A stretch of DNA of 64,000 bases from Candidatus Aminicenantales bacterium (GCA_049515535.1 JBEKTZ010000011.1:1-64000); one strand, 5' to 3'; positions 1 through 16,361 are shown, numbered from the stretch's first letter. Notes: generated by a model not told the origin, from the sequence alone. Translations and numbers: made by a program.

Positions 1-127
1 GAAAATCGATCATTTCGTCCAACATTCAAATGCCAGCGCCCAGGCTTTCGCCTGGACGGCCACGGCCGATTCCATCCTGGCCAAGATCAAGAGACTTTGC
101 CAATATATTTCCGAGACGGAACACTAG
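1..127 (+). mobile_element. 3' end of an IS630-family transposase gene / IS right end (runs off the window edge)
   Basis: Frame starting at nt 2 reads KIDHFVQHSNASAQAFAWTATADSILAKIKRLCQYISETEH*, matching the typical IS630 C-terminus (W-T-A-T-A-D-S-I-L-A-K). The stop codon lies in ...ACACTAG, consistent with a TA/CTAG target. Confidence 0.85.
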
Positions 128-565: not shown

Positions 566-1072
566 GTCATGCCCCCATTTCAGATTAGTTTTATTCTATT
601 TACTATTCAGTAAGGATGTCAATTATATTGGCTCATTCCGATGTGTCAGAATCAGAAAAGGCATATAAGGGTTTTTAGGCCAAAAAAGGAGAGACATCAG
701 GAGCTGATATTTTGGAGCTAAAATGATATCTCTGACAATATATGAATAATATTGGCGGGAAGCAGGGCTAGCGGCTCCATGCCTCATCGTCCTAAGGGCC
801 ATTTTCTCCTAATATATTCAGCACTCTCTTTTGGGCCGAGTTTTTGTGTTTTATTTTGCACCCTTATATAAAAAATATCCGTACCCTTTTCTCTCACCCA
901 GACAGGTTCTTCACTCTGTTTCACGCGGATTCTGCAGTTCTTATCAGAAAATATGCGAGGCCTTCTAGCTTGCGCGTTATTCCATTTTTATGATATATAG
1001 GAGCAGATCAATGCCTCTATCGCAGGGCCAAGGCGTACTTATGGAATATCAAGACCGGGGGGAAGGTTCAGC

Positions 1073-1621
1073 ATGCAGAAAAGATTAGTCATTGGCTGTG
1101 CAATTTTCCTTTTAACGGGAACCGCGTTCGCCGCTTCAATCTCCATCCAAATGAAAGCTTCCTACTTTCTTCCCTCGGATGAATACTTCAAATCGATCTA
1201 TGGGAACGCCCCGACCTATGGCGCCAAAATCGGTTTCGACATTTGGAAGAGCATAGGCATTTGGCTGGACGCCGAATTCTATTCCAAGACAGGAAAAACA
1301 ACTTTGATGTCCGAGGAGACCAAGCTCCAACTCATCCCGATCACGGCAGGCGTTCGCTATATGTTTCTACCGGACAAGAATTTCTCGCCTTATCTTGGGG
1401 CCGGTATAGGCTACTTCCAATACAAAGAGACTAACCCGATCGGAAGCGTTTCCAAGGGCGACGTCGGGTTCATTATCCAGGGCGGGTTCGTCTTTAAGCT
1501 CAACCGAATGATCTTTGTTGATGTCCAGGGGAGCTACAGCAGCTGCAAGGCAAATCCATCCGGCGTCGAAGCAGAGCTAGGGGGAATCAAAGTCGGATTG
1601 GGCTTGGGAATTTCCTTATAA
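1073..1621 (+). CDS. Outer-membrane beta-barrel protein (OmpW/OMP_b-brl-like)
   Basis: Signal peptide (..GTAFA), amphipathic strands, SPYLGAGIGY motif and a C-terminal beta strand. Confidence 0.8.
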   Translation: MQKRLVIGCAIFLLTGTAFAASISIQMKASYFLPSDEYFKSIYGNAPTYGAKIGFDIWKSIGIWLDAEFYSKTGKTTLMSEETKLQLIPITAGVRYMFLPDKNFSPYLGAGIGYFQYKETNPIGSVSKGDVGFIIQGGFVFKLNRMIFVDVQGSYSSCKANPSGVEAELGGIKVGLGLGISL

Positions 1622-1856
1622 CGCGGGCCAACTTAACCAGCTGTTTTTATTGGAAATTCGAAGTAACATTCCGAATTCTTCTCTCATTTGGAATGTGTCG
1701 GCGAATTTTTACCCTATTTTCCCCAGATTTCTACTTCGGCCCGGCGGGCGGTCCGAAGCAGGCTCCGGTAGCGGAAATCGATTTTTCACAAAATCGCAGA
1801 CACATACGAATTCGCGAAAATTCTGTATATGTTTGCATTTATCACCGTGTCTGCAT

Positions 1857-4800
1857 TTAGCGCACGCTCATTTCGGTCAGTGCGCTCTCCCAGCCTAAAT
1901 TGTTGACTGCTGACACGGCATACCGATATTCCCGATTTATTTGCACATTCCTGATCAGAAATTCGAGTTTATCGGAATTCACTTGTCCAATTAGATTTTT
2001 CTTGTCGTTATCAATTTCATAGATCCGATAAGATGAAATTCCGCCGCTATCCGGGTTGGATTGCCAAGTCAGTCGGACGATGTACTCGATCATAAGGAGC
2101 GAACGGTTTATTAGTTTTTCGCCCTTGAAATTCAGCGGCTGGGCAAGATCTCCGGCGAAATTGGCGGTGATGGCCTTGTTCGCATCCAAGGTAATCGAAA
2201 GTGGATTTATATTCTCGCGCCCTGGCGGCACATTCCCGGTCCATTGGAAAAAGCTGTATTTGGCATCGGGGATGGCCCAAACAAGAGCTTCGATTCGACT
2301 ATCTTGGTTATCATATTCATAGTTATTGCGGGGAGCCGGATTCGTCGTGCCCCCTTGACTCGATGAGATGGAAAGAAGACTCGTGGCAAAAGGTGGCGGC
2401 GCTGTTTGAAAGTTCCAGATCGGGCTTTCCGCGATGCCTCCGTTCAAATCCTTAGCGACGACTTTCCAATAATAGGTACTTCGCGTTGCCGGCTTGTGCA
2501 TAAAGTCCTCATAAAAAGGTGAGGTTTGTCCTTTTGAAAATAAGGGCGGATTGGACGTCGTTCCCAAATAGAGATCATAGGAGACAATATCTCCAATATC
2601 GTCATCTCCTCCCGCCCAGTTGGGGAATAAAAAATTTAGAATCCCGACCATTGTCTGGCCATTTGAGGGAAATGGATTCCATGGCATTTGGGGAGGGGTA
2701 TTGATTTGGTTAAGGGTAGTGGCGCTCGCGGGACCAGCGGAATTGGATTCCCCATATTTGTTGTAAGCGCTTATCTGGAAGACATGCTGTCTATTTTTCT
2801 CCAGGCCGTCTACAGATATGGAAGTAAAATTCGCCGGAACATATCCCCAAATCTTGAAGGCAGTATCGATATTTTGTCTATACTTGACGATAAACCCTCG
2901 CTCATTGGAGGAGTTGTCTGTCCAGTTCAAATTGATACGGTTGTTAGAAACCGGAGTCGCTTGAAAATTCGATGGGGCCGCCGGCGTGCCAGCCGGGATA
3001 TTCGCCTTGAAGCCGACGACACGATCCCCCCATTTGAGTTCGCCGACCCATAAATATTCTCCATCGAAGCATAGGCCGCCAGGCAGAGTCAGCGTTGTAG
3101 CCGACTGCCCTGCTATCTTGCTCGTTAAATCCGGCTGGCCTAAAACGACGTCATAGGGCTGATCGCTCCGAATCGGGAAGCTCTCATAAAGACAAATCCG
3201 GTGGTTCCCTGCATCCGAGACGAATAGTCGATTATCCGAAATAAAGATTCCCCCTAATCCATTAAAACTCAACGGGGAACCCTTCAGGATGAAATCGGGC
3301 GGCTGGTTATTTGCCGTCGGAAGGTTGTTCCAAATATAGACTCCCGTGTCCACTGAGATGACGGCAAGTCTTTGGCCATCCGTGGCCATGTGCGCCGGCG
3401 CATTGAGCCCTTGAATAGTAATATCCGGGGTCGTGGATTGCTCTCCCTTCGGCAGAGAATTCCAAATCAGAATCCGATTGTGACCGGTATCAGATACGAA
3501 CAGCTTGTTGCCGACCATGGCGACTCCCTGGGCCCCACTCATCAATCCCGCAGGATTAATAACGATATCGGGAAGGACCTTATCCCTTTGAGGAATTTGA
3601 TTCCAGATCTGGACTCCGCCATCTTGATTGGCGATCGTGACGAGCCTGACTCCATCGCTCCAGATTTGATTTCCCGGCTCACGAAGCACGCTTGAGCCGA
3701 GGTAATTCGGTTTCCATACTCCAAAATCGATCGGCGAGATCAAATTGTCGGCATCCTCATTGTTTTGTTGGGGCAGATCCTGGTGGATAACGATGCGGTC
3801 GCTAAAGCTCTTAATCATCAACGTTTTTCCCGTGCTGAACACATCGGCAATTTGCCATATGCCTTTTTTTCCGAGAAAGACATCGACTCCGAAATCTTCC
3901 TCGCCAAGAACAAGATCCGCCGGCGCGGCAGGATTCTGGAGAAGTTGGTTGTAAACTAGAGTTCGGTTTTGATAGGAGTCAGCGATAAATAATCGTTGTC
4001 CATCATACCAGGCTCCCGAACCAGCAAATGGCTGTCGGGTAGAATCTCCACCCGCTAAGACGACATCCGGCCATTGATTGTTTCGCGTGGGAAGGGAATT
4101 ATAGATATAAAGCATCGCCCCCGCGACAATGAGGACGTTGTTTTTCAGGCACAATCCGCCGTGGTGGAGCGCCAGCCCGTTGGCGTTCATATGGTAAAAA
4201 TCGTCTTGAAAAAGCACGAGATCGGCGGGCTGTCCGTTTTGTGTCGGGAGCGTCTTCCAAATCAGGACTCGTTGGAAGTTGTAATCCGATATGGCTAGCC
4301 ATGTTCCGTTCGTGGCGATCGATCGCGGTGTAGCCATGTTCCAAGCATTGGGATTTTGCCAAGGCGCCGTATCTGTGAAATTCTGTCGGCCAAGGATTAA
4401 ATCTGCCTCCTGGTTATTTCTTGTCGGAAGCGAGTTCCAAACCAAGACCCTGCCGGTTTCCGTACAGACCACATACAGTCGCGTGCCGTCGTACAGAACA
4501 TCCCACGGCCAGTTGGTTGAAGCGGGACCCATTTGTTGGCCTCGGACCGTGTCGAAATCCGGTTGGCCGAGAACCAGGTCCGCGGGATGTCCATTCGTTG
4601 TCGGAATATGGTTCCAAATTAAAATCCGATTATTATACGTATCCGCAACAAATAATCTCTTTCCGTCAGAATATGCTTTATGAGGCCAGTTCATAAGGGA
4701 AGGTCCGGCCCCCGATTCGTTATGCGTAAAATCGGGCTGGCCGACAACGACATCGGGCGGCTGATTCATCATCGTCGGCATGGAGTTCCAGATGAGTATC

Positions 4801-5024
4801 CTATTATTGCGCGAGTCGGCGATAAAAAGCCGAATCCCATCGCTCATCACGCCATAGGGATGATTCTGGCCGGTTGCGATGGCATTGTTATGCGCATAGG
4901 GGTTTAAAAAAATCTCCGCGGGTTGCCCGGTTTGAAAGAGCTGGCTCCCTTGGAGAGCAAAAGCAAAAAAGAAGTATGATAAGCAAAAGATAAAGATCTT
5001 TTTTGATGTGCGAACGGAATTCAT
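1857..5024 (-). CDS. Secreted NHL-repeat beta-propeller protein with FN3 domains and a C-terminal FN3-like domain
   Basis: Signal peptide; repeated LFVADTYNNRILIWN...ADLVLGQPDF units; FN3 motif PAAPSNFQA...LNWTDNSSNERGF. Confidence 0.85.
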   Translation of the reverse strand: MNSVRTSKKIFIFCLSYFFFAFALQGSQLFQTGQPAEIFLNPYAHNNAIATGQNHPYGVMSDGIRLFIADSRNNRILIWNSMPTMMNQPPDVVVGQPDFTHNESGAGPSLMNWPHKAYSDGKRLFVADTYNNRILIWNHIPTTNGHPADLVLGQPDFDTVRGQQMGPASTNWPWDVLYDGTRLYVVCTETGRVLVWNSLPTRNNQEADLILGRQNFTDTAPWQNPNAWNMATPRSIATNGTWLAISDYNFQRVLIWKTLPTQNGQPADLVLFQDDFYHMNANGLALHHGGLCLKNNVLIVAGAMLYIYNSLPTRNNQWPDVVLAGGDSTRQPFAGSGAWYDGQRLFIADSYQNRTLVYNQLLQNPAAPADLVLGEEDFGVDVFLGKKGIWQIADVFSTGKTLMIKSFSDRIVIHQDLPQQNNEDADNLISPIDFGVWKPNYLGSSVLREPGNQIWSDGVRLVTIANQDGGVQIWNQIPQRDKVLPDIVINPAGLMSGAQGVAMVGNKLFVSDTGHNRILIWNSLPKGEQSTTPDITIQGLNAPAHMATDGQRLAVISVDTGVYIWNNLPTANNQPPDFILKGSPLSFNGLGGIFISDNRLFVSDAGNHRICLYESFPIRSDQPYDVVLGQPDLTSKIAGQSATTLTLPGGLCFDGEYLWVGELKWGDRVVGFKANIPAGTPAAPSNFQATPVSNNRINLNWTDNSSNERGFIVKYRQNIDTAFKIWGYVPANFTSISVDGLEKNRQHVFQISAYNKYGESNSAGPASATTLNQINTPPQMPWNPFPSNGQTMVGILNFLFPNWAGGDDDIGDIVSYDLYLGTTSNPPLFSKGQTSPFYEDFMHKPATRSTYYWKVVAKDLNGGIAESPIWNFQTAPPPFATSLLSISSSQGGTTNPAPRNNYEYDNQDSRIEALVWAIPDAKYSFFQWTGNVPPGRENINPLSITLDANKAITANFAGDLAQPLNFKGEKLINRSLLMIEYIVRLTWQSNPDSGGISSYRIYEIDNDKKNLIGQVNSDKLEFLIRNVQINREYRYAVSAVNNLGWESALTEMSVR

Positions 5025-5552
5025 TCCCTTTTCTCCTTAAGAAATCATCATTCTGAGTTCACCGATAAGAGAGAAATAATAAACCGTCAAAAACACCTGT
5101 CTCCCCTTGGCTCCTTTATCTAAGAATTCATTAGCACAACGAATCAGCTTTGTCAACGCATTGAACTCGTTCACTACGTTAGTGATGGTGGGGCTCGATG
5201 AGATTTCAGCCAACGCTGATAATATTCGCATGGGAGAGGAAAAGTACCCCCAATTTTCATTTCCAGATATGTGTCGAGACTAATTCCAAGAAAAAAAAAT
5301 AACTTAGCCCGATTTCATCTTAATTATTGGGGGAAGTCCTCTTTTCTTTCGGCCGCGTTCTGTGGCGCCGGACCGATGATAGGCCTTTCATTTCCTATTA
5401 TTTCTATATGAATTGACGTTTGCTTGTCCACTTTCGGTCCCCTTTTTTTGATCCAAAGGGCTATTTTCGGCTATATTTGGCTATGAATGAAAAAATGCGC
5501 CGACTCAACGGCTCGCATTCATAAGATATTGATTTTCTTGAGTTATAAGGAG

Positions 5553-5649
5553 TGGCGGGAGGATGTGGGAATCGAACCCACCCAGCCCCTTCGTCAGAAG
5601 CCGTGCTGGATTTGAAGTCCAGAGGGGCCACCAGACCCCATGCCCTCCC
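5553..5649 (-). tRNA. selC: tRNA-Sec (anticodon UCA), full-length copy
   Basis: Minus strand reads GGGAGGGCATGGGGTCTGGTGGCCCCTCTGGACTTCAAATCCAG...GTGGGTTCGATTCCCACATCCTCCCGCCA. It has a 6-bp D stem with a 4-nt loop, a TCA anticodon, a long variable region, a T arm and an encoded CCA, and lies near selABD. Confidence 0.93.
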
Positions 5650-5658
5650 GGGTCGGCT

Positions 5659-5667
5659 ATTGTATCA
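5659..5667 (-). promoter_or_regulatory. Extended -10 promoter (TG-A-TACAAT) for the full-length selC
   Basis: TGnTACAAT ends 9 nt upstream of the tRNA 5' end, the same spacing as the promoter in front of the second tRNA copy. Confidence 0.65.
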
Positions 5668-5854
5668 CAAGATCAGGGATCTTGACCTCCAAAAGGCAAT
5701 CATTTCAGCCTCGCCATCCTCTGCTATCCCGCGGTGTTATGTCAATTTGGCTGACAAAGCCAAACAAACAAAAAGTCACGACTCACGACATCCATAAATT
5801 GTGCAGTCCGTCAAAAATTCATTTGAACCAATTCATTGCTAATAGAGCTCAGCG

Positions 5855-5889
5855 ATTTTTCTACAGATTTATTCACAGAAACTGTGGAA
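5855..5889. repeat. Conserved cassette end motif ATTTTTC..AGA.T.ATTCACAGAAA.TGTGGAA (copy 1; copy 2 at 8852-8886)
   Basis: Manual alignment of 5855-5889 with 8852-8886; contains inverted TTCACA/TGTGGA half-sites. Confidence 0.75.
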
Positions 5890-5993
5890 AAGGAGCTCTT
5901 ATAATTGATTACCCCCTCCCCCTTTGTTCATTATTCATTCCCCCCGCCGCCGCCAAGCTTCTTTAGGATCCGGCGGTGCAACCGTCTGGCCGA

Positions 5994-8402
5994 TCAGGGT
6001 TCCAGGTTCATCTTCCGCAGCAGGGCCTTGTAGCGGGGATGGGTGCGCAGCGGATCGTAATTGGGATGAACATGGATGTGGAGCATCAGGGGCTCGTGCT
6101 CGTCGACTGCCTTCTCGAACCAGTCGAAGGCCTTGTCCATCTCTCCGAGACCTACATAAATGGCCGCGAAACTCCAGGATGGCACGTACTGCTTTTGAGC
6201 GCGCTCCTGCAGTTCCTCGAGGAGTTTCAGGGCTTCTCCTGTCCGGCCTGTTCGAGCATATGCCCAGCCAAGATTTCCCAAGGCAAATGAGCTGCGTCCC
6301 GTCACCTGTGCTAGCGTTTCTATAGCTCGAATCGCGTCGTCATGCTTCCCAATTTGGAAGTAGCAGGATCCGAGAAGAATGTAAGCCCAGCATTGCGGAT
6401 CAAGTTCGAGCGCATTGCGGCACTGCTTGATGGCTCGATTCCACTCCCGCTTGAGACAGTAATTGTAGCCGAGCTTCACCTGCAGAGAGGGTGACAGCGG
6501 ATCCATCTCCAATGCCCTTAGGTATGCCGCGACCGCTTCATCCAAGCGCTTCATGGGCCCAAGGTAATAGTGGTCGTACCATATCAAGACGTCTTCTGAC
6601 TTGGGATCGAGCTCCAATGCCCGGCTGAATTCACGCTCGGCCGCCTTCCAATCAAACTCACTGGCCCGGAGCACGCCCATCATCGCATGGGGCTCCGCCA
6701 GCTGGTCATCGAGTTGTAGCGCCTTCCGGGTAGCCTGGTCGGCTTGCGCATTGACTGCTTTCGGCGGCATTAGTCCGGACATTCCCAGGATATTGTAAAA
6801 CCCGGCCAGACCATGCCAAGCAAGAGCATAGTTTGGATCCAACGCAATGGCCTGCTCGTAATACTCTTTACTTTTCGCAAGACCTTCCGGAGTAAACCTT
6901 AAAAGCTGATAACGCGCCTTCAAGCACAGGTTGTAGGCTTCCACGTTTTCCGTGTGCCGCTTCACCAGCGGACGGTCAGCCGCCAGCCGTACGCGCAGCT
7001 TCTCCACAATGGCCTGCGAGATTTCGTCCTGAATGGCGAAGACGTCCGTCATCTCGCGGTCGAAGCGCTGGCTCCACAGGTGGTACCCGTCGCTCGCCTT
7101 GACCAGCTGCGCCGTCACCCGGATACGGCTGCCCAGCCGGCGCACGCTCCCTTCCAGGATATGCTCGACGTTGAGCCGCGCGCCGATTTCGCGCACGTCC
7201 TGCTCCTTGCCGCGGAAGGCAAAGGCCGAGGTCCGCGCCATCACCCGTAGCCCGGGCACCTGCGTCAGGGCGTCGATGATGTCCTCGGCCAGCCCGTCGC
7301 TGAAGTACTCGTTCTCCTGGTCCGCGCTCAGGTTCGCAAACGGCAGCACCGCCAGCGATGGGGCGCTCGGCGCCGCGGCCGCGCGTCCGGACTCGCGCTC
7401 TCGTTTCAGCCGCGTCAGGTCGACCAGCAGATCCTTAGCCGACTGGTAGCGTACGTCCCGCTCCTTCTCAAGCGCCTTCTCAATAATATGTTCGAGTTCA
7501 GCCGGCAGGTCGGGGTTCAGCCGGATCGGCAGCGCCGGCATTATATTCAGGATCCCGTTGAAGATGGCCGCCGACGTATCGCCGCGGAACGGCAAAATCC
7601 CTGTGCCCATCTCATAAAGAACGACGCCCCATGAGAACAGGTCGGTCCGTGCGTCCAAGTTCTTACCCAGCGCCTGTTCCGGCGACATATACGCCACCGT
7701 CCCCATGGTCGAGCCTGGACTTGTCAGCAGTTCCTCGATGGTCAACGTCGGTATCTCAGGAGCTAGCCTCCCCTCCGCTTTTGGCTGCGGCGCCTGGAGA
7801 AGCTTGGCAAGTCCAAAATCCAGGATCTTCGCCTGTCCCGAGCCCATCACAAAAATATTCCCCGGCTTGATGTCCCGGTGGATGATGCCTTTAGCATGGG
7901 CCGCTTCCAGCCCGCCGGCCACTTGTATCGCCAGATCCACAATCTGGTCCACGTCCAAACGCTTCCCCTGCATATATTCCCTGAGTGTCGTTCCTTCCAA
8001 AAACTCCAAGGCCATAAAGTGTTGGCCCTCGTGCTCATCGATATCGTAGATCGTGCAGATGTGGGGATGGTTCAGGGCTGAGGCGGCCCTGGCTTCCCGC
8101 TGGAAGCGCTCGACGGCCTGGCGGTCGTGGGCCAGGTTTTCGGTCAGGAACTTCAGGGCAACGGGGCGCTGGAGCTTGGTATCCTCGGCTTTGTAGACGA
8201 CACCCATCCCGCCTCTGCCGATCATTTCAAGGACCTTATACTTCCCGGCAATTATAGCGTCCCTGGGGATAATCTTCAGGGACTCTGGGATGGTTTTATC
8301 TTGGGAGGGAGTCGCCGCCTTGGCGCTCGTGAGCGGCGTCGCGCAATTGTTGCAGAATCGGGCCGTATCGAGGTTATCGGATTGACACGCCGGGCATTTC
8401 AT
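5994..8402 (-). CDS. Ser/Thr protein kinase with N-terminal zinc ribbon, TolB-N-like domain and TPR repeats
   Basis: CxxC...CxxC; GRGGMGVV, VALK, HRDIKPGN, DFG, YMSPEQ; SLAVLPFANLS; TPRs. Start placed at ATG 8402 after a GGGAG RBS. Confidence 0.92.
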   Translation of the reverse strand: MKCPACQSDNLDTARFCNNCATPLTSAKAATPSQDKTIPESLKIIPRDAIIAGKYKVLEMIGRGGMGVVYKAEDTKLQRPVALKFLTENLAHDRQAVERFQREARAASALNHPHICTIYDIDEHEGQHFMALEFLEGTTLREYMQGKRLDVDQIVDLAIQVAGGLEAAHAKGIIHRDIKPGNIFVMGSGQAKILDFGLAKLLQAPQPKAEGRLAPEIPTLTIEELLTSPGSTMGTVAYMSPEQALGKNLDARTDLFSWGVVLYEMGTGILPFRGDTSAAIFNGILNIMPALPIRLNPDLPAELEHIIEKALEKERDVRYQSAKDLLVDLTRLKRERESGRAAAAPSAPSLAVLPFANLSADQENEYFSDGLAEDIIDALTQVPGLRVMARTSAFAFRGKEQDVREIGARLNVEHILEGSVRRLGSRIRVTAQLVKASDGYHLWSQRFDREMTDVFAIQDEISQAIVEKLRVRLAADRPLVKRHTENVEAYNLCLKARYQLLRFTPEGLAKSKEYYEQAIALDPNYALAWHGLAGFYNILGMSGLMPPKAVNAQADQATRKALQLDDQLAEPHAMMGVLRASEFDWKAAEREFSRALELDPKSEDVLIWYDHYYLGPMKRLDEAVAAYLRALEMDPLSPSLQVKLGYNYCLKREWNRAIKQCRNALELDPQCWAYILLGSCYFQIGKHDDAIRAIETLAQVTGRSSFALGNLGWAYARTGRTGEALKLLEELQERAQKQYVPSWSFAAIYVGLGEMDKAFDWFEKAVDEHEPLMLHIHVHPNYDPLRTHPRYKALLRKMNLEP

Positions 8403-8543
8403 CGCTCTTTTCTCCCTTTCTGGGTAAAAGAATAACACCAGGAAAGGAAGCCGTCAAATGCGGTAGCAGACTTCTCCCTTGAGGCCTAATGCGTCATATA
8501 TGTGTCACCCTCTTGCACAACGACCCGTACGTTTAGCGACCGG

Positions 8544-8581
8544 AATGTCCCGGTGTGAATAATTTGTGAATATTCATGGGG
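8544..8581. repeat. Conserved cassette end motif with a tandem TGAATA repeat (copy 1; copy 2 at 11657-11694)
   Basis: aatgtcccggtgtgaataatttgtgaatattcatgggg vs aatgttccggtatgaataatttgtgaatattcatgggg (2 mismatches). Both start 149 nt from the anticodon-loop core. Confidence 0.85.
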
Positions 8582-8690
8582 AACTTTAAGGAACTTTGCG
8601 GAACTCGGAGAAACCAAAAAGAATCCAAAACTTATTGATAAATAAGGGAATTTGTTGTTTATAAAGAAAATAGCTCAATCCTAGTTTTCA

Positions 8691-8731
8691 GATTTGAAGT
8701 CCAGAGTGGCCACCAGACCCCATGCCCTCCC
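8691..8731 (-). repeat. 5' half of tRNA-Sec (att-like duplicate)
   Basis: Matches 5609-5649 with a single mismatch, in the D stem. Confidence 0.92.
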
Positions 8732-8740
8732 GGCGATCAA

Positions 8741-8769
8741 ATCCTATTTGATTCGAACCCAATTTTCAA
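8741..8769 (-). promoter_or_regulatory. Sigma70-type promoter TTGAAA-N17-TAGGAT in front of the tRNA 5'-half copy
   Basis: -35 at 8769-8764, 17-nt spacer, -10 at 8746-8741, 9 nt before the tRNA-like 5' end. Confidence 0.7.
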
Positions 8770-8851
8770 GATTAGACTCTAAAACGAGAAGAGTTTTTTC
8801 CGCAGACCGATTTTTTTAGAAGAGCATTGAAGCGCGCGTCGGAGCAATGCT

Positions 8852-8886
8852 ATTTTTCGAAAGACTAATTCACAGAAATTGTGGAA
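8852..8886. repeat. Conserved cassette end motif (copy 2 of 5855-5889)
   Basis: atttttcgaaagactaattcacagaaattgtggaa. Confidence 0.75.
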
Positions 8887-8974
8887 CACGCGATCGAGAA
8901 GACCTGTCCATCACCCGGCATTGGATGGCCTAACTCAGGTGCGCCGGCGAAATTCCCTCGTGTGATGTGGCTAA

Positions 8975-11413
8975 CTACTGGGGGAAGTTCATCCTGCGCA
9001 GCAGCGCCTGAAAGCGCGGGTCGGAGCGGAAGGGGTCGAATTGAGGCATCACCTTCATCTGGCACATGTATGTCGTCCGATCCTCATAGCCCCTTTCCAA
9101 CTCTTTGAAGCCCTCCTCCCTTTTATCCTCCATGTACAAAAGAATGAAGGCCAGGGAGGTTGGGGGGACGTATCTGCGTTTCGATAACTCCTGCAGGTCA
9201 GCCAATATCTTCAAGGCCTCGCTCCGCTTGCCTTCTTGCGAATAGGCGATGCCAACACCTGCAATATATCGCGGGCTGCTTGGTTCAAGGGCCAGCGCTT
9301 TTTTCATTTGGGCTACAACATCCCCCAGCGTCGGTTTCGCCTGATAAACCCCTCCGAGGAGCCAATGAGCAAAAGCAAAATTCGGCTCCATCTCCAACGT
9401 TGCGGTCAGCTGTTTGACCGCCTGTTCAAACTGGCGGGCAAAAGCGTAGTGAACGCCCATCATGGCATTGATTTCGAGCGACGTCGGCTCGATTTCCCGC
9501 GCTCGACTACATTCCAGCAGGCCCTCTTCAAACCGTCCCATGCAATCCAGGTACTGGCCGTAATACATGTGAATATATGCAATGTTCGGATTCAGTGCGA
9601 TGGCGCACTTGAATTCCTTCTCCGCTTCCTGCCAATTCCAGTCGTAGTACGCGGCGGTAAACGCTCGGACGGCATGGGCATCAGCGAGGCTATCATCCAA
9701 GGCGAGAGCATCTTGCGCTGCTCTTATCGCCTGGGGGAAGGTATCTCGCGGCGCAAGATAGCCCAGATTGCTGAGGTTGGCATAGAAGTTGGCCAATCCG
9801 GCGTGGGCCAAGGCAAACCCCGGATCCTTTTCGATGGCTTGATTGAAAAACTGAATAGCTCGGCGGAACGCTTCCTCCGTCATCTTTTTCCCATAGTACA
9901 GCCCCTTCAGGTTGAGCTGATAGGCCTCCGTGCTCTCGGTATAACGCTTGGTCAGCAGCTTCCGCTCTGCGCCCGTCAGCTGCAAGCGCAACTTATCTGA
10001 TATTTCAGTCGCGATTTCCTCCTGCACGGCCTGAATGTCCGCGAGCTTTCGATTGTACTGCGCTCCCCAGAGTTGCGAGACCTTCTGCACATCCACCAGT
10101 TCGGTCCGGACATCCAGGCTCTCGCCCCGCTGAATCACCCTCCCCATCAGGATCGAACGGACCTTGAGCTCCTTGCCTGCCTTTTGGGCATCAACGTCCT
10201 TTCCCTTGTAGCGAAAGGCCATGTTGCGGGGCACGACTCTCAGGTTGGACAATTGAGCGAGGCTGTTGATCAGGCTCTCGGGAATGCCGTCGCTGAGGTA
10301 CTCCGTATTGGGGTCGCCGCTCACATTGACGAAGGGCAGAACCGCAATCGAATCGACGGCCTCCTTTTCACGACGGGGCCTGTCGGTTTTTCCTTCTTTG
10401 ACCGTAGCGCCCTTTGTATTGGCTGTCTTTGTTCGGGGAATCACCCTTGCCCCTGTCGGTCCTTCATGTTCGATCGTAGCGAGCCCCGCTTTGAGCTCAT
10501 CTGCGCTTTTGTAGCGGTTCTCCCTGGCTTTTTCCAGGCATTTCAGGATCACCCGGCTGAGGTCTTCGGGGACCTGAGCATTAAGTTCGCCAGGATCCCT
10601 GGGAATTTCGCTCTTCTGCTTTATCCCAACCGCAAACGGCGTGTCCCCTTCGAACGGCAATTGGCCCGTGACCATCTCGTAGAGGATGATCCCGAGCGAG
10701 TAGATGTCCGACCGCGGGTCGACATTCTTCCCTTCGACTTGCTCGGGGCTCATGTACTCCGGCGTCCCGATCATCATCCCGGCGCCCGTGATCCCCTTCC
10801 CCGCCAGCGAACGGGCGATCCCGAAATCCATGATCCTGGCATTCCCCTCTTTATCGATCATGATATTGCTGGGTTTAAGGTCCCGATGAACGATCCCAAC
10901 CCGGTGGGCCTCGGCTAGCCCGTCGCAAACCTGCTTGGCGATCGAAATCGCGGTCCCGATCGCTAATTGCCGCGACTGGCGGATCAGCCCCTTCAGATCC
11001 TGGCCGGGGATGTATTCCATGGTGATGAAATGCGTTCCGCCGTCCTCCATCAGCTCGTACATCTTCCCGACGTTACGATGGCCGATCTTGCGGGCCAGCT
11101 TGAGCTCGTTGCTGAAGCGTTCGACCGACTTCTTGTCCAAAGCGATCTCGGGTTTTATGAGCTTGAGGGCAACTTCCTCGTTGAGTTTCTTGTCGACGAC
11201 CCGATAGACTTTACCCATGCCGCCGTGGCCGAGCTCCTCGATGATCTGATAGCGGCCGGCGAAGGTCGAGCCCGTGGCGAATTCCTTGATAGGCGATTGA
11301 AGTGTTTCCGTGGCCTCTGGATGGAGATCCTTAGAAGGAGGAAGTGGTGTCGCGCATTCTTTGCAAAATTTTGAGTCAGAGGGATTATCGGTCTGGCACG
11401 TCGGGCATTTCAT
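8975..11413 (-). CDS. Ser/Thr protein kinase with N-terminal zinc ribbon, TolB-N-like domain and TPR repeats
   Basis: MKCPTC...FCKEC; GHGGMGKV, VALK, HRDLKPSN, DFG, YMSPEQ; SIAVLPFVNVS; TPRs. Start placed at ATG 11413. Confidence 0.92.
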   Translation of the reverse strand: MKCPTCQTDNPSDSKFCKECATPLPPSKDLHPEATETLQSPIKEFATGSTFAGRYQIIEELGHGGMGKVYRVVDKKLNEEVALKLIKPEIALDKKSVERFSNELKLARKIGHRNVGKMYELMEDGGTHFITMEYIPGQDLKGLIRQSRQLAIGTAISIAKQVCDGLAEAHRVGIVHRDLKPSNIMIDKEGNARIMDFGIARSLAGKGITGAGMMIGTPEYMSPEQVEGKNVDPRSDIYSLGIILYEMVTGQLPFEGDTPFAVGIKQKSEIPRDPGELNAQVPEDLSRVILKCLEKARENRYKSADELKAGLATIEHEGPTGARVIPRTKTANTKGATVKEGKTDRPRREKEAVDSIAVLPFVNVSGDPNTEYLSDGIPESLINSLAQLSNLRVVPRNMAFRYKGKDVDAQKAGKELKVRSILMGRVIQRGESLDVRTELVDVQKVSQLWGAQYNRKLADIQAVQEEIATEISDKLRLQLTGAERKLLTKRYTESTEAYQLNLKGLYYGKKMTEEAFRRAIQFFNQAIEKDPGFALAHAGLANFYANLSNLGYLAPRDTFPQAIRAAQDALALDDSLADAHAVRAFTAAYYDWNWQEAEKEFKCAIALNPNIAYIHMYYGQYLDCMGRFEEGLLECSRAREIEPTSLEINAMMGVHYAFARQFEQAVKQLTATLEMEPNFAFAHWLLGGVYQAKPTLGDVVAQMKKALALEPSSPRYIAGVGIAYSQEGKRSEALKILADLQELSKRRYVPPTSLAFILLYMEDKREEGFKELERGYEDRTTYMCQMKVMPQFDPFRSDPRFQALLRRMNFPQ

Positions 11414-11656
11414 CGCTCTTTTCTCCCTTTCTGGGTAAAAGAATAACACCAGGAGAGGAAGCCGTCAAATGCCGTGGCAGACCTCTCCCTTGGGGCCTAT
11501 TACGTCACTTTTATGCCACCTTTTTGCGCAACTCTCCGGACATTACTACGGGGAGCAGCAAATATGTTACATAATCCTTACTGCTCCCCGAGTACTAGCC
11601 AGGCGACAAAGACATCCGGGGTCAATTATATTCCGCCCGGCTTAGTAAGTAACCCA

Positions 11657-11694
11657 AATGTTCCGGTATGAATAATTTGTGAATATTCATGGGG
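11657..11694. repeat. Conserved cassette end motif (copy 2 of 8544-8581)
   Basis: Offset from copy 1 is 3113 nt, identical to the offset between the two tRNA-half repeats. Confidence 0.85.
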
Positions 11695-11805
11695 GCCTCA
11701 TAGGGGCTATGAGGGGCTTATCGGGGCCAAAATGAATACAAAAATGAATCGATTAAAATACAATTTGCTGATTCTAAGGAAAATGCCTTAATGCGTGATT
11801 TCGGT

Positions 11806-11844
11806 TTTGAAGTCCAAAGGGGCCACCAGACCCCATGCCCTCCC
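11806..11844 (-). repeat. 5' half of tRNA-Sec at the presumed ancestral selC position, directly after selB
   Basis: Matches 5611-5649 with one mismatch and begins 7 nt after the selB stop codon. Confidence 0.92.
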
Positions 11845-11851
11845 AGCCGCG

Positions 11852-13765
11852 TTATTTTAGCACATGTTTATCGCCGAGTCTTTTCGTCAGGCCCGTCCTG
11901 TCGAAATATTCGAGAAGGGCGCAGGCGTACTTGCGTGACAAGCGCAGCCTGTCGCGAAGCTCGGCGATCGTGATCTCGCGTTTTTTCCGCAGATGGTCCA
12001 GGACCGCCTCACGCGCTTTCTCGAAAAACTCCCGGTGATACGTCACCCGGGGATCGATCCGGACGAGTCTCCCCTGCTGGACGAGCGCATGCATCAGCCT
12101 CTTGAAAACGGTGGGCGTGAGCCGGAGCTCGCGGCAGACGTCGTCTTCGAGCGGCGTCTCGAATCGCGCTCCGCGAAAAACGCTCTCGATGCGGTCCGCG
12201 AGCGCCTGTTCGTTCGACGACGTCTTGACCTCGCGGCCGGGGAGTTCGATCGCATGGTCTTTCCGGGCCAACGCTTTCTTCTCCAAAAGCCCGTCCAGGA
12301 CCCATTTGAACAAAGGCTCGCCCGCCCCTTGAACAAAATGCGCGCGAAGATCCGCCAACGGCATGTCGGGCCGGGACGGATTCGCCTTGAAATATTGGCG
12401 GACGGAGGCCAGCATCTTCTCGCTCAAGCGATCGCTTTCCTCCTCGAGAACGTATTCTTCCTTTTCCGCGGGAAGCGGGATGAGCCTCCCGGCCTCGCCG
12501 AGCATTTTTACGGCATCCCGGATTTCTCTGACGTGGATGCCGAGCTCCCGGGAGATCTCCGCCGGCGCCAGAGGCTTCGGCGCGTATTTTTTAAATGTCT
12601 GTTCGACGACGTCATCGAGCGTTCCCTCGAGCTTTTTCATCGCCTCCTGCGCCTTCGGATCGAAGCGCTTGTGGCGGGCCGGCGTCGTGTCGAGGATTTC
12701 CCCTCCCCCGATCGTTACGATGGGCGAAAACGCGCGGATGATGAAACGGTCTTTGAACAAGGCGGCCGTCGGAGATTCCAGGACGAATTGGACCAGAACG
12801 GATTCGCCGGGAAAGGCTTTTTCTTTTTCGAGGAGGATGACCCGGGCGATGACTTCGTCCGTGCCGACGTGGAGGCGGACGCGGTCGCGCGTCTTGATCT
12901 CCTTCGCCCCGTCTTCGAGAAGGCGGAGCCGCGCGTCGATGCGCGTCGCGGGAGCGAGAAAACCCGGCGTCGCCGCGCACTGCCCCCGTCGCAATGACTC
13001 CTTGTCGATATCGTGAAGGTTAAGGGCGGTCCGCCGGCCGATTTCCGAGCGATCGCGCTTTTCCTTGTGGACCTGGATGCCGCGGACCCGGGCCGTCGCT
13101 TTTTCCGGCAGGATCTCGACGCTGTCCCCGACCTTGATCTCGCCCGACAGGATCGTTCCGGCGATGACCGTTCCGAAGCCGTGCATGGTGAAGACGCGGT
13201 CGATCGGCATCCTAAAAAACCCGGAGTCCGGTCGCCCGGCCACGCGGCGCCCGAGCTCCATGAGGGCCGACCGGATCGCGTCCAGGCCAGCGCCCGTCAC
13301 GGCCGAGACCGGGAGGACCGGGGCGGCTTCGAGAAACGTCCCAGCCGTGAAATTCCGGACCTCGGATTCGAGTTCGAGGAGTCGGGCCTCGTCCACGAGA
13401 TCGGACTTGGTCAGCGCGACGAGGCCTTCGCGGATACCCAGGAGCTTGAGAATGTCGAAATGCTCGCGCGTCTGGACCGAGATGCCTTCATCGGCGGCGA
13501 TGATGAACAGCGCCGCGTCGACGTGGCTCGCGCCGGCGACCATGGTCTTGACGAATTTCTCGTGGCCCGGAACGTCGATGAACACGATCTGCTTTTCATA
13601 GCCGGGAACGTCCATGAAGACGAAGCCCAGCTCGATCGTCATGCCGCGCTCTTTTTCCTCGGGGAGGGCGTCCGGATCGATTCCGGTCAGGGCCTTGACA
13701 AGCGCGCTTTTGCCGTGGTCGATGTGGCCGGCCGTGCCGACGATGACGTGCTCTTTTTCGGTCAT
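11852..13765 (-). CDS. selB: Selenocysteine-specific elongation factor
   Basis: [32 protein letters not shown]-terminal winged-helix region with SRKYA..LLEYFD. Confidence 0.96.
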
Positions 13766-14955
13766 GCTTTTTTCAGGACGATTTTTCCCTTGGATTTGCC
13801 GACGATCCGTCCGATCACGGCGGCCTTTCCGGCCCCCTTTTTCTTCAGCTCTTTGAGAACGGCGCCGGCCTTCGCCGCGGGCACGCAGAGGAGAAGTCCG
13901 CCCGAAGTCTGCGGATCATAGAAGACCGCTTCGAGCGCCTCGCCGATGCCCGCGCTTTTCTCCACGAATTTCGCGGCGTATTCCATATTGCGTTCGATGC
14001 CGCCGGAGATCATCCCCTTCCTGAGACAGTCCATGACGCCGCTGAAGACGGGCACGGCGCCGGCGCGGACTTCGGCCGTGACGCCGCTCTGGACGACGAT
14101 TTCGCTCAGATGACCCATCAGCCCGAATCCCGTGACGTCCGTCGCGCAGCGCACGCCGGCCCTGATCGCGATCTCGGCGGCCGCTTTATTGAGCGCGGCC
14201 ATGGACCCGGCGATCTCGGCCAGCCATAGTTTCTTCGCTTTGTCGAGCTGCGCGGCGAAGCCGATGACTCCTGTTCCGATCGGTTTCGTGAGGATGAGGA
14301 CGTCGCCCGGCCTGGCTTTGTCGTTCGTAATGATCCTCCGCGGATGAACGACGCCGGTCACCGCGAAGCCGAATTTGATCTCCTTGTCCTTGATGCTGTG
14401 GCCGCCGATAACGACCGTCCCCGCCTCGCGCAGCTTGTCGATCCCGCCCTGGAGCATCCGGTTCATGATCCGCGGGCTGAGCTTTTCGATCGGAAAGGCG
14501 ACGATGGCAAGGGCGGTCAAAGGCGTCCCGCCCATAGCGTAGATGTCGCTCACGCAATTGGCCGCGGCGATCTGGCCGAAGACGTAGGCGTCGTCCACGC
14601 AGGGGGTAAAAACGTCCACGGTCTGGACGAGCGCAAGCTCTTCGTTCAATCGATAGACGCCCGCGTCGTCGCCCGTGTCGGCGCTGACGAGGACGTTGGG
14701 ATCGAAAACGCGGGGAAGCCCGGTCAGGGCCTTTTTGAGATCTTCCTGGCCGATTTTGGAGGCGCAGCCGACGTTCTCCACGAACCGCGTCAGCCGCGCG
14801 TCCTCGGCCGTGTCGTCCTCGCGCTCGCCGGAACAGAGACAGACGTTTTTCCGTTTGAAAAGATCGCAGGGACAAGGCTCCTTGGGATTGCAGACGCAGT
14901 GGCCGAGCTTGATCGACCGGCCCATGATCCTTCTGCGTTTGGCGTAATCGATCAT
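13762..14955 (-). CDS. selD: Selenide, water dikinase (Cys form) with an N-terminal Cys-rich extension
   Basis: GCASKI active-site motif, [42 protein letters not shown]. Confidence 0.95.
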
Positions 14956-16361
14956 GATGGAAGGAACAGCCCTTCAATCGCCTCTTTCACGATCTCGTCT
15001 TCATCCGGCTGGATGGTCCGGAAATCGAACAGCACGGCATCTTTGTGAATTCTGGAAAAAATCCGCGGCTTATGAAGCCGCAGCGCTCTTCCGATATCGT
15101 CCGGGCCCAGCGAAGCGGAGGCGATCGCCAGCATTTTTGTCGGGATGGTCTCAACGGGGACTGAGCCGCTCCCGACCTGAGATCCGCCGTCCACGACGCT
15201 CACCCGGACGTCGGCCGGAAGGCTCTTTTTCAATCTCCGCTCGACGCGCCGGGCCCTTTGTTGAAGCTCTTCCACGGTCCATGAGAGCATGCGATAAAGC
15301 GGATGCCGCTCTTTGAGCAAGTCGGGCGCCAGAAAAAGCTTCAGCGTGGCTTCCATGGCGGCAATGGTCAGCTTGCCGCAGCGAAAAGCGCGGGCCAGCG
15401 GGTCCTTCTTGACGCGGTCGACGTATTCGGCCTTTCCGACGATGAGTCCGGACTGCGGGCCGCCGATGAGCTTGTCGCCGCTGAAGCAGGCCGCGACCAC
15501 TCCCGCCTGGACGCTGCGCCGGACCATCGGCTCTGTGGCGAGGCCGAATTCCCGAAGATCGACGAGAGCGCCGCTCCCCAAATCGTCGATGACGGGAATG
15601 TCGTGCTTGGCCCCGAGCTCGACGAGTTCTTCGATTTCGGGCTCTTCGTGGAAGCCGACGATCCTGTAGTTGCTGTGATGGACGCGGAGGATGGCGCCTG
15701 TCTGGCCGCTAATGGCGGCGGCGTAATCGCGCAGGTGCGTTTTGTTCGTCGTTCCGACTTCGCGCAGGACGGCGCCGCTCGCGCTCATGACGTCGGGCAT
15801 GCGGAACGAGCCGCCGATCTCCACGAGCTGGCCCCGCGAGACGATGACGTCTTTCCCGCGGGCGAGCGCGTGAAGGACGAGGACCGTGGCCGCGGCGTTG
15901 TTGTTGACCAAGGTCGCGGCTTCGGCTCCGGTCAGTTCGGCGAGCAGGCGGCTGACGCGGAAATCGCGCTGGCCGCGCCGCCCCGTCTCGAGGTCAAGGG
16001 CGAGTGTGCAGTAGCCGCGCGAGGCTTCATCGAGCGCCTGCCGGGCCGCCTCGGGAAGCACGGCCCGGCCCAATCCGGAATGCATGAGGATGCCGGTCGC
16101 GTTCACGGCTTTTTCGAGGGCGAACGAGAATTTTTCGTTCAATCGATCTTCGATCCGGCGAAATAGGCTCTCCTGCGAAAAAGCTCCATCTCCGGGCGCA
16201 AGGCTTTTTTCGCTAAGGATCTCGTCCCGGAACTCATCCAGCGCGGCGCGACAGGTTTTTAGAAAAGCGTCCCGGCCGAATCGGCCGATGAGCTTTTGGC
16301 CGGCTTCAGCGGAGAGCAAGGAATCGATCGAAGGGATTTGACGGAGCCGAGTCTCTTTCAT
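14952..16361 (-). CDS. selA: L-seryl-tRNA(Sec) selenium transferase
   Basis: NATG...LGRA, VNNNAAA, SRGQLVEIGGSFRMP, EVGTTNKT, FSGDKLIGGPQ. Confidence 0.96.
   Translation of the reverse strand: MKETRLRQIPSIDSLLSAEAGQKLIGRFGRDAFLKTCRAALDEFRDEILSEKSLAPGDGAFSQESLFRRIEDRLNEKFSFALEKAVNATGILMHSGLGRAVLPEAARQALDEASRGYCTLALDLETGRRGQRDFRVSRLLAELTGAEAATLVNNNAAATVLVLHALARGKDVIVSRGQLVEIGGSFRMPDVMSASGAVLREVGTTNKTHLRDYAAAISGQTGAILRVHHSNYRIVGFHEEPEIEELVELGAKHDIPVIDDLGSGALVDLREFGLATEPMVRRSVQAGVVAACFSGDKLIGGPQSGLIVGKAEYVDRVKKDPLARAFRCGKLTIAAMEATLKLFLAPDLLKERHPLYRMLSWTVEELQQRARRVERRLKKSLPADVRVSVVDGGSQVGSGSVPVETIPTKMLAIASASLGPDDIGRALRLHKPRIFSRIHKDAVLFDFRTIQPDEDEIVKEAIEGLFLPS

What the first reader, a model, noticed from the sequence alone, without database searches (positions are those of the whole stretch)
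5553..11844. Tandem array of integrase-less ~3.1 kb kinase cassettes that insert at the tRNA-Sec anticodon loop and rebuild the tRNA from its 5' side
Seen: the 5' half of tRNA-Sec occurs three times (5611-5649 in the full gene, 8693-8731, 11806-11844). Shared identity ends at or within 2 nt of the anticodon loop CTTCAAA. The copy 7 nt after selB is truncated, and the full gene now sits two units downstream. The units are 3082 and 3113 bp. Each has one kinase gene, conserved end motifs and no recombinase. Established: tyrosine integrases often cross over in tRNA anticodon loops, but usually restore the gene by supplying the 3' part. Inference: these are non-autonomous cassettes whose attP carries the 5' half, mobilised in trans and stacked at selC like an integron array of signalling genes.
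Basis: partly seen in the sequence, partly recalled or inferred. Interest (0 to 1): 0.9.

Follow-up and report, generated by a model that had tools for sequence, protein, structure and literature searches.

The report
Integrase-less gene cassettes stacked at tRNA-Sec
Two small kinase-carrying pieces of mobile DNA without a recombinase gene are stacked between selB and the selenocysteine tRNA gene of an uncultured Aminicenantes bacterium; each brought its own promoter and front half of the tRNA, a rare but already catalogued way of inserting, and they belong to a cassette family that appears to be undescribed.

Summary
The 39-nt 5' half of tRNA-Sec occurs three times (0, 1 and 1 mismatch; none expected by chance). 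Identity ends in the anticodon loop. Each of the two units has one Ser/Thr kinase and no recombinase.

It is not a tandem duplication. The kinases are 35-37% identical and are not each other's closest paralogs. Each left end is closer to ends in other genera than to its neighbour.

The ~155-nt AT-rich "arm" behind each displaced half defines a family in Candidatus Aminicenantes. It follows displaced 5' halves of tRNA-Sec, tRNA-Leu(UAA) and tRNA-Lys(CUU), always joined in the anticodon loop, with varied cargo.

A cognate tyrosine integrase exists in relatives. It ends about 10-20 nt before the rebuilt tRNA, and its 3' end holds the arm's 20-nt motif at a fixed distance.

Relatives show 0, 1, 2 or more units at selB-selC. 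One population has a further unit behind cassette B; another has different DNA in place of cassette A.

Best reading: a tandem-accretion array of integrase-less, CIME-like cassettes. Rebuilding from the 5' side is known (159 of 3919 Islander islands). Whether the cassettes still move is open. No cognate integrase was found in this genome.

The parts
11852..16361 (-). selA (14952-16361), selD (13762-14955) and selB (11852-13765): the chromosomal flank upstream of the array
   Evidence: Pfam hits: SelA 463.7 bits; AIRS/AIRS_C; GTP_EFTU + SelB-wing_3.
11854..11864 (-). Extended -10-like TGTGCTAAAAT inside the selB 3' end, 9 nt before copy A: the native tRNA-Sec promoter
   Evidence: Read from the sequence. 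The same TGTGATAAAAT stands before the intact tRNA-Sec at the empty selB-selC junction of G014 and in L087 and L089. That it acts as a promoter is inference.
11806..11844 (-). Displaced tRNA-Sec 5' half, copy A (attL-type core)
   Evidence: 1 mismatch in 39 nt. Rfam gives only a partial match of 27.3 bits.
11649..11805 (-). Arm A: AT-rich, with three ~10-nt direct repeats (AGCCCC type) and the motif GAATATTCACAAATTATTCA at 11669-11688
   Evidence: Arm HMM E 9e-42. 90.7% identical over 182 nt to the arm of G003 in another genus, against 76% to arm B.
11385..11544 (-). Promoter-like leader block of kinase A (TTGACG-17-TATTCT at 11468-11440), shared with kinase B
   Evidence: 85% identical over 160 nt to 8374-8533. 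Promoter scan. No other copy in the genome.
8975..11413 (-). Cargo of cassette A: Zn-ribbon + Ser/Thr kinase + TPR protein (812 aa from the ATG at 11413)
   Evidence: Pkinase 199.4 bits. The closest paralogs (49-57%) lie elsewhere in the genome; kinase B is only 35% identical.
8732..8770 (-). Right end of cassette A: the promoter-like TTGAAA-17-TAGGAT that it brought for the tRNA
   Evidence: Promoter scan, 8769-8741. Window 8691-8770 (this end plus copy B) is 95% identical over 80 nt to the stretch in front of and including the start of the intact tRNA-Sec of G003.
8693..8731 (-). Displaced tRNA-Sec 5' half, copy B
   Evidence: 1 mismatch in 39 nt.
8536..8692 (-). Arm B: three AGTTCC-type repeats and the motif at 8556-8575
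   Evidence: Arm HMM E 4e-48. 88-94% identical to arms in other genera and behind other tRNAs, for example L116 behind a tRNA-Lys half at 93.6%.
8374..8533 (-). Promoter-like leader block of kinase B (TTGACG-17-TATTCT at 8457-8429)
5994..8402 (-). Cargo of cassette B: Zn-ribbon + Ser/Thr kinase + TPR protein (802 aa from the ATG at 8402)
   Evidence: Pkinase 161 bits. 37% identical to kinase A.
5650..5793 (-). Right end of cassette B, with the extended -10-like TGTGATACAAT at 5659-5669 that mimics the native selB-end promoter
   Evidence: 97% identical over 186 nt to L167, where another arm follows in place of the tRNA 3' half.
5553..5649 (-). Intact tRNA-Sec: the 5' half was supplied by cassette B and the 3' half is chromosomal
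   Evidence: ARAGORN. Rfam 71.2 bits. A terminator-like hairpin follows at 5498-5510.

Best explanation
The locus is a tandem-accretion array at selC made by a family of Aminicenantes integrative elements. Their tyrosine integrase crosses over in the anticodon loop of tRNA-Sec, tRNA-Leu(UAA) or tRNA-Lys(CUU). These three tRNAs share the sequence GGACT..AATCC around the loop.

The attP of the element carries a promoter and the tRNA 5' half on the integrase side. On the other side it carries a ~155-nt AT-rich arm. Each insertion therefore rebuilds the tRNA from the 5' side and leaves a junction of old 5' half plus arm behind.

The two units in this window are integrase-less derivatives, like cis-mobilizable elements (CIMEs). 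Each keeps the attL-type junction, one cargo kinase with its own promoter, and the promoter plus 5' half for the next junction. They cannot move on their own.

Shown: the anatomy, the family, the cognate integrase in relatives, variation in occupancy, and the same cassette behind two different tRNAs. Inferred: that this integrase catalyses the events, that the 20-nt motif and the triple repeats are protein-binding arm sites, the order of arrival, and the route by which the integrase was lost.

My estimates: about 0.5 that such cassettes are still moved when an integrase-bearing relative lands next to them (in cis) or supplies integrase in trans; about 0.35 that they are inert remnants.
For: 1. 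Anatomy.

2. Not a duplication. The kinases are 37% identical. Kinase A has paralogs at 49-57% elsewhere in the genome, against 35% to kinase B. Arm A is 90.7% identical to the G003 arm but 76% to arm B.

3. Family. The arm is found in 10 of 61 relatives, 13 of 34 genome-collection loci and 40 of 78 flanked metagenome loci. Every junction I inspected is joined in the anticodon loop of Sec, Leu(UAA) or Lys(CUU).

4. Cognate integrase. In L026 a 374-aa Phage_integrase protein ends 10 nt before an intact tRNA-Sec. Homologs at 60-100% identity sit before intact tRNA-Leu, tRNA-Sec or tRNA-Lys in 8 further loci, plus L137, where ARAGORN called no tRNA because the contig ends. The motif lies 72-76 nt before tRNA base 1, with 0-1 mismatch, in 21 of the rows that one search printed; every other printed row that could be scored had 6 or more mismatches. 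The motif is read in two different frames (EYSQIIHT and RIFTNYSH), so it is a DNA site and not a protein feature.

5. Occupancy at selB-selC. The junction is empty in G014, G051 and G018, holds one unit in L087 and L089, and holds two here.

6. Population variation. An X2 contig at depth 112 has 1021 other letters in place of the 3113-nt unit A, while kinase B is covered with 19 differences in 1648 nt and 44 in 1375 nt. L167 has the right end of cassette B followed by a new arm.

7. Mobility. The same arm plus cargo is 99.3% identical over 447 nt behind a Sec half (L167) and a Leu half (L183), and the identity starts in the loop.

8. An integrase-less state is the rule among the units seen whole. 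Of 46 listed intervals, 30 are distinct; none has a full integrase and one (L127) has a truncated one next to a kinase.

9. The CIME and accretion model is taken from passages of PMC5704250. The count of islands with a 5' tDNA fragment is from PMC4383910, Table 1.
Against: No excision product, circle or empty site was seen for this organism itself (contigs only).

The cassettes lack the integrase-side copy of the motif (6 or more mismatches). If that site is needed, a free cassette circle would not be a complete attP.

No integrase with 60% identity or more was found in this 94%-complete assembly. Such an integrase was found in only 2 of 61 relatives, whereas 10 of 61 have arms.

The X2 variant differs at the selB-side unit and shares the tRNA-side unit. 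Simple one-at-a-time growth at the tRNA end does not predict this. The X2 contig also shows no recognisable 5' half next to selB.

The loci held at most 8-10 kb of flank, so long integrase-bearing elements could not be seen whole. The '0 of 30' count is biased by this.

That the integrase binds the arm is inference.
Confidence: 0.75

Rival explanations
1. The units are dedicated non-autonomous cassettes, in an integron-like system. They are built to be cut out and inserted in trans by an integrase encoded elsewhere, and the arm plays the role of an attC-like site.
For: In 3 of 3 pairs of TOTE cassettes, arm identity (66-80%) exceeds identity at four-fold degenerate sites of the adjacent orthologous gene (41-53%).

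Eight NTase/TOTE cassettes share a homologous right end with no integrase: the NTase stop codon lies 11-70 nt before tRNA-Leu. The integrase-less design is therefore old and not a random decay product.

Displaced halves stay 92-100% intact.

Cassette A and the G003 cassette share both ends but carry different cargo.

Mixed junctions occur: Lys and Sec junctions on one contig (L161/L162), and a Sec half before a tRNA-Leu (L153).

Arrays occur in genomes without a cognate integrase, including the complete genome G047.
Against: No integrase lies next to the arrays. The arm has no conserved secondary structure (consensus -1.76 kcal/mol). The motif on the integrase side is absent from the cassettes. 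Truncated integrases in L127 and L093 show that decay does occur. The arms may have been conserved while the elements were still autonomous. No circle was seen.
Confidence: 0.15
2. The units are inert scars. Two autonomous elements integrated one after the other and each lost its integrase by ordinary deletion. Nothing here moves any more. The arms persist because they are young or because they serve as cargo promoters.
For: Truncated integrase next to a kinase cassette in L127 and a truncated one in L093. No cognate integrase in G000. Units with deleted or truncated arms exist (L022 unit 1, L041, L081 unit 1, L143 unit 2). In about 21 of 29 units the first gene behind the arm is co-oriented with it (my count plus the window).
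Against: Arms and displaced halves are conserved far above synonymous sites in cassettes that have diverged. A shared integrase-less right end is seen in 8 cassettes. Cassette turnover is seen at this very locus in other populations.
Confidence: 0.3
3. Local tandem duplication of a unit made of tRNA 5' half plus kinase, followed by divergence; or an assembly artefact of a repeat.
For: A 160-nt leader block is 85% identical between the two units and occurs nowhere else in the genome. This suggests some local exchange. The only full-length support comes from what may be the source data.
Against: Similarity along the units is mosaic, not uniform: kinases 37%, arms 76%, leader 85%. Each kinase and each arm has closer relatives elsewhere. 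The same architecture recurs in many independent assemblies and in a complete single-contig genome. Independent X2 contigs support unit B.
Confidence: 0.03

Closest known systems
tRNA-gene (tDNA) genomic islands made by tyrosine integrases, the Islander class with anticodon-centred attP and a displaced 5' tDNA fragment
   Same: The crossover is in the anticodon loop. The target tRNA is regenerated. A displaced fragment in the same orientation marks the far end. Tandem arrays occur. In Islander Table 1, 159 of 3919 islands have a 5' fragment, 2083 have an anticodon-centred site, and 125 are tandems of 2 or more (PMC4383910, section 5 read).
   Different: Islander requires an integrase in every island, and the units here have none. 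The units are very small (0.7-10 kb; 3.0-3.1 kb here). One arm type serves three different tRNAs. The element also brings the tRNA promoter.
CIMEs (cis-mobilizable elements) and tandem accretion, defined for ICESt1-related elements of Streptococcus thermophilus
   Same: These elements have lost their integration and transfer genes but keep att sites. They sit in tandem with later arrivals at one target gene, and they can leave as part of a composite with a functional neighbour (passages of PMC5704250 read; the original 2004 and 2011 papers were seen only as references there).
   Different: The target is the 5' side of tRNA genes, not the 3' end of a protein or tRNA gene. Only the attL-type side (core plus arm) is clearly kept. 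No conjugation module is known; the autonomous relative encodes an integrase plus a HerA/VirB4-like ATPase fused to an excisionase-type HTH. Cis mobilisation is not shown here.
Integrons and CALINs (attC arrays without an integrase); this comparison rests on recall, and no paper on them was read
   Same: Arrays of small units that mostly hold one to a few genes, each with a conserved recombination-site module, often in genomes without the recombinase, with variable cargo.
   Different: There is no intI, attI or Pc platform. The arm is not a folded attC-like hairpin. The cassettes carry their own promoter-like sequences. The anchor is a tRNA gene that must be rebuilt at each step.

Membership tests
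tDNA island with displaced 5' fragment (Islander type) | An intact target tRNA plus a displaced fragment of the same tRNA, in the same orientation and on the correct side | tested here: met
   Full tRNA-Sec at 71.2 bits. Two 5' halves lie upstream on the same strand.
tDNA island with displaced 5' fragment (Islander type) | The identity block ends at a recognised crossover sublocation (anticodon loop) | tested here: met
   Identity ends 0-2 nt after CTTCAAA in both copies. The same holds at the Leu and Lys junctions in relatives.
tDNA island with displaced 5' fragment (Islander type) | An integrase gene inside each island | tested here: not met
   No PF00589 match on this contig. No integrase remnant in 5400-12000. 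The feature is met only in relatives (L026, L092 and others).
CIME / accretion array | Lacks integration and transfer genes | tested here: met
   Each unit holds only a kinase gene.
CIME / accretion array | Retains the att sites on both sides | tested here: inconclusive
   The core plus arm (attL type) is kept and conserved. The integrase-side motif seen 72-76 nt before the tRNA in integrase-bearing elements is absent (6 or more mismatches).
CIME / accretion array | Derived from an autonomous element by decay | tested here: inconclusive
   A truncated integrase lies beside a kinase cassette in L127. However, 8 cassettes share an old integrase-less right end.
CIME / accretion array | Mobilised in cis by a functional neighbour | not testable with these tools
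   Only indirect hints: junctions of integrase, 5' half and arm in L163 and L187, and mixed arrays in L153 and L161/L162.
Integron | An integron integrase with attI and Pc next to the array | tested here: not met
   The flanks are selB and an NHL/FN3 protein. Family integrases score below every NCBIfam cut-off, including that for integron integrase.
Integron | attC-type sites that fold as imperfect hairpins | tested here: not met
   RNAalifold on 18 arms gave -1.76 kcal/mol and 12 weak pairs (RNA parameters were used, and single-strand DNA folding was not tested separately).
Simple tandem duplication | Uniform similarity along the units, with each unit the other's closest relative | tested here: not met

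The most novel reading that the evidence does not exclude
Aminicenantes carry a tRNA-anchored gene-capture system that works like an integron without being one. Small integrase-less cassettes are defined by a selectively maintained ~155-nt arm plus a borrowed tRNA 5' half. They are shuffled among three tRNA genes (Sec, Leu-UAA, Lys-CUU) by a few integrase-bearing 'driver' elements, in cis as composites or in trans. Arrays therefore persist and turn over in genomes that lack the integrase. Notes from earlier windows of this scan suggest look-alike arrays in other phyla.
Probability: 0.35. Interest if true: 0.7.

Novelty: new member of a known kind. Interest (0 to 1): 0.5.

Why it matters
This defines a cassette and integrase family in an uncultured, environmentally widespread lineage, and I found no description of it. 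My search for Aminicenantes + integrase + tRNA returned 5 papers, none on this topic by title or abstract.

It gives clean natural examples of three things. First, an attP that carries a promoter plus the 5' half of a tRNA. Second, one arm type used at three tRNA genes. Third, arrays without an integrase in which arms and displaced halves stay conserved.

The family offers a testable case for how accessory and defence genes are collected at tRNA genes without a resident recombinase. It also shows that island finders which demand an integrase in every island will miss these arrays.

For the organism, it shows that selC, whose native promoter lies inside selB, now depends on a promoter brought by mobile DNA.

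Tried and rejected
1. Structured RNA in the arm. Rfam found nothing there at E up to 1, and RNAalifold gave -1.76 kcal/mol on 18 arms. Rejected.

2. The motif as protein-coding conservation. It is read in two different frames in the integrases and forms a third, untested ORF start in an arm. Rejected.

3. Integrase remnants inside the window's units. None were found.

4. A transposase origin for the ORF fragment (KCGGxMKVVAFI) that follows both arms on contig C10. This was my recollection only; Pfam gives nothing. Dropped.

5. A viral origin. The motif has 0 matches in viral contigs.

6. Motif hits in Oscillospiraceae, Alistipes, Paenibacillus and similar records. They have no arm beyond the motif, and I treated them as unrelated. 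24 of the 78 flanked metagenome loci likewise have no arm.

7. Excised circles or an empty site in the window's own population. Contigs of runs X1-X4 show no such joint, but contigs cannot show absence. The many short 'joints' inside the kinase genes in that table are cross-matches of paralogs.

8. Coverage shares of runs X3-X24 were not used for any claim.

9. Earlier-scan look-ups by place and by sequence returned nothing.

10. PMC9897764 was searched for terms on 5' fragments. The only hit was in its reference list.
Full report
**Observation**

Everything lies on the minus strand, in this order:
- selA, selD and selB (16361-11852);
- 7 nt of spacer;
- a 39-nt tRNA-Sec 5' half (copy A, 11844-11806);
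- a ~155-nt AT-rich arm;
- kinase A (11413-8975);
- a second 5' half (copy B, 8731-8693) and a second arm;
- kinase B (8402-5994);
- the only intact tRNA-Sec (5649-5553; Rfam 71.2 bits against a gathering score of 47).

The three 5' halves differ by at most 1 of 39 nt, and 0 matches were expected by chance. The spacings are 3082 and 3113 nt. Identity to the tRNA ends 0-2 nt after the loop CTTCAAA. The units contain no recombinase or remnant of one.

**Not a duplication**

- The kinases are 37% identical.
- The genome holds about 17 paralogs of this kinase family. Several, at 49-57%, are closer to kinase A than kinase B is at 35%.
- Arm A is 76% identical to arm B. It is 90.7% identical over 182 nt to an arm in G003, a different genus.
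- Window 8691-8770, which is the 39 nt in front of copy B plus copy B itself, is 95% identical over 80 nt to the stretch in front of and into G003's intact tRNA-Sec. The cargo between these shared ends is unrelated.
- Arm B is 88-94% identical to arms in other genera, including one behind a tRNA-Lys half.
- Only a 160-nt promoter-like leader block is shared specifically by the two kinases (85%). I cannot explain this beyond local exchange.

**The family**

Record titles of relatives name Candidatus Aminicenantes. The arm was found in:
- 10 of 61 related genomes;
- 13 of 34 loci from a motif scan of the genome collection;
- 40 of 78 flanked metagenome loci. Of the rest, 14 had only the motif and 24 had no arm.

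In every junction I inspected, the arm follows a displaced 5' half of tRNA-Sec, tRNA-Leu(UAA) or tRNA-Lys(CUU), joined in the anticodon loop.

The arm has invariant blocks, three ~10-nt direct repeats and the motif GAATATTCACAAATTAT, and it has no conserved secondary structure. This is the make-up expected of a protein-binding attP arm; that reading is inference.

Cargo in relatives includes:
- MNT/HepT, HEPN and AbiE toxin-antitoxin pairs;
- a TOTE primase-helicase system;
- caspase- and clostripain-family peptidases;
- a BlaR/BlaI pair;
- thioredoxin-like proteins;
- kinases of the window's family in three further loci.

**The integrase**

In L026 (genome G008) a 374-aa tyrosine recombinase ends 10 nt before an intact tRNA-Sec, and the arm's motif lies inside its 3' coding end.

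Homologs at 60-100% identity sit in the same position before intact tRNA-Leu, tRNA-Sec or tRNA-Lys in 8 further metagenome loci. In a ninth, L137, ARAGORN called no tRNA because the contig ends there.

The motif lies 72-76 nt before tRNA base 1, with 0-1 mismatch, in 21 of the rows that one search printed. Every other printed row that could be scored had 6 or more mismatches.

The motif is translated in different frames in different integrases, so it is a DNA site. The attP is therefore: integrase, motif, promoter, 5' half, core, arm with a second motif copy.

In L092 the integrase follows an 882-aa HerA/VirB4-like ATPase fused to an excisionase-type HTH.

Integrases next to Sec are 89% identical or more to each other and about 60-72% identical to those next to Leu or Lys. 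The arms, by contrast, are shared across targets.

**Promoter**

At empty sites the native promoter-like TGTGATAAAAT lies in the selB 3' end (G014). Copy A keeps it. Cassette B brought a near-copy, TGTGATACAAT, which now precedes the working gene. Cassette A brought a TTGAAA-17-TAGGAT site, which is the one in front of G003's working gene. That these sites function as promoters is inferred.

**Variation and mobility**

- selB is followed at 8-11 nt by an intact tRNA-Sec in G014, G051 and G018. There is one unrelated unit in L087 and in L089, and two units here.
- In an independent run, X2, a contig at depth 112 joins window 8732 to 11846 through 1021 other letters, in place of the 3113-nt unit A. 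Kinase B is covered with 19 differences in 1648 nt and 44 in 1375 nt.
- In L167 the right end of cassette B (97% over 186 nt) and its 5' half are followed by another arm, which means a further unit.
- That arm plus 280 nt of cargo is 99.3% identical to L183, where it follows a tRNA-Leu half. The identity begins in the loop.
- Mixed junctions exist: a Sec half before a tRNA-Leu in L153, and Lys and Sec junctions on one contig in L161/L162.

**Integrase-less units**

One search listed 46 intervals between consecutive 5' halves of one tRNA. I removed 16 as the same contig or the same sequence, which leaves 30. None has a full integrase. One, L127, has a truncated integrase beside a kinase. Loci held at most 8-10 kb of flank, so long elements could not be seen whole.

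Cognate integrases (60% identity or more) were found in 2 of 61 relatives, G008 and G004. The next best is 46%. The complete genome G047 has a three-unit array and a best hit of 42%.

G000, which is 94% complete, has only a broken gene at 42-45% identity and one at 32-36%.

Three results argue against pure decay:
- In 3 of 3 pairs of TOTE cassettes the arm is 66-80% identical while four-fold sites of the adjacent gene are 41-53% identical.
- Eight NTase/TOTE cassettes share a homologous right end with no room for an integrase.
- Displaced halves stay 92-100% intact.

A caveat applies: the arms may have been conserved while their elements were still autonomous.

**Comparison with what is known**

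Rebuilding from the 5' side and tandem arrays are both catalogued. Islander Table 1 lists 159 of 3919 islands with a 5' fragment and 125 tandems. The decay, accretion and cis-mobilisation scheme is the CIME model (passages read). The Williams 2002 paper on sublocations is recalled and not read; I saw it only in reference lists.

As far as my four literature searches go, the new elements are this particular family, its use of three tRNAs with one arm, the imported tRNA promoter, and the prevalence and conservation of very small integrase-less units.

Notes from earlier windows of this scan describe look-alike arrays in other phyla. These are unchecked leads, not support.

**Verdict**

This is a new member of a known kind, of moderate interest.

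Noticed in passing
G000 contig C10 (locus L001 8713-13938): A second array in the same genome, at tRNA-Leu(UAA). A displaced 5' half (41 nt, 97.6%) with a diverged arm lies 5.1 kb upstream of the gene, and an arm relic without a half lies 1.6 kb upstream. Both arms are followed by a similar ORF fragment (KCGGxMKVVAFI) that has no Pfam match.
   Followed up: partly
window 8374-8533 and 11385-11544: A 160-nt promoter-like leader block plus the first codons is 85% identical between the two kinases and occurs nowhere else in the genome. The proteins are only 35-37% identical and are not closest paralogs. Local gene conversion is possible.
   Followed up: partly
window ~5470-5500 (-): Three ATAGCC-containing direct repeats at ~10-nt spacing lie about 50 nt downstream of the intact tRNA-Sec. 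They resemble the triple repeats of arm A but are not followed by the 20-nt motif.
   Followed up: no
window 11543-11650 (-); L143 4220-4327: About 108 nt behind arm A's motif, including a 12-bp hairpin, is 83% identical to a stretch that directly follows a tRNA-Leu 5' half in L143. This looks like a further shared module.
   Followed up: no
window 18719-18807: A near-perfect long inverted repeat (about 29-bp arms) scores on both strands as a sub-threshold Rfam mir-4796 match (40 bits against a gathering score of 90). The family call is surely spurious, but the palindrome is real.
   Followed up: no
G000 contig C1 92791-119155: A tyrosine integrase (32-36% identical to the family integrase) ends about 20 nt before tRNA-Glu(CUC). 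A second tRNA-Glu(CUC) 26 kb upstream shares an identical 3' half (44 nt) but not the 5' half. This may be another island that sits on the 5' side of a tRNA.
   Followed up: no
G000 contig C6 85478-89761: A classical island at tRNA-Lys(CUU). The intact gene is followed by 4.2 kb of sugar-metabolism-type ORFs (my reading of the sequence, not checked against a family library), an N-terminally truncated integrase with in-frame stops, and a displaced tRNA copy that lacks its first 17 nt.
   Followed up: partly
L153; L161/L162 (one contig); L031: L153 holds a Sec 5' half and arm whose motif runs straight into the ~45-nt spacer before an intact tRNA-Leu. L161/L162 hold Lys and Sec junctions 3.2 kb apart on one contig. 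L031 holds a hybrid 5' fragment with a Leu-like D-arm and a Sec anticodon arm. These are signs of exchange between the three tRNA sites.
   Followed up: partly
window 1-5600: The DNA downstream of tRNA-Sec (an NHL/FN3 protein of 1055 aa, an OmpW-like protein and a NucS-like protein) has 39-52% G+C, against 58-67% in the sel operon. It may also be accessory DNA.
   Followed up: no
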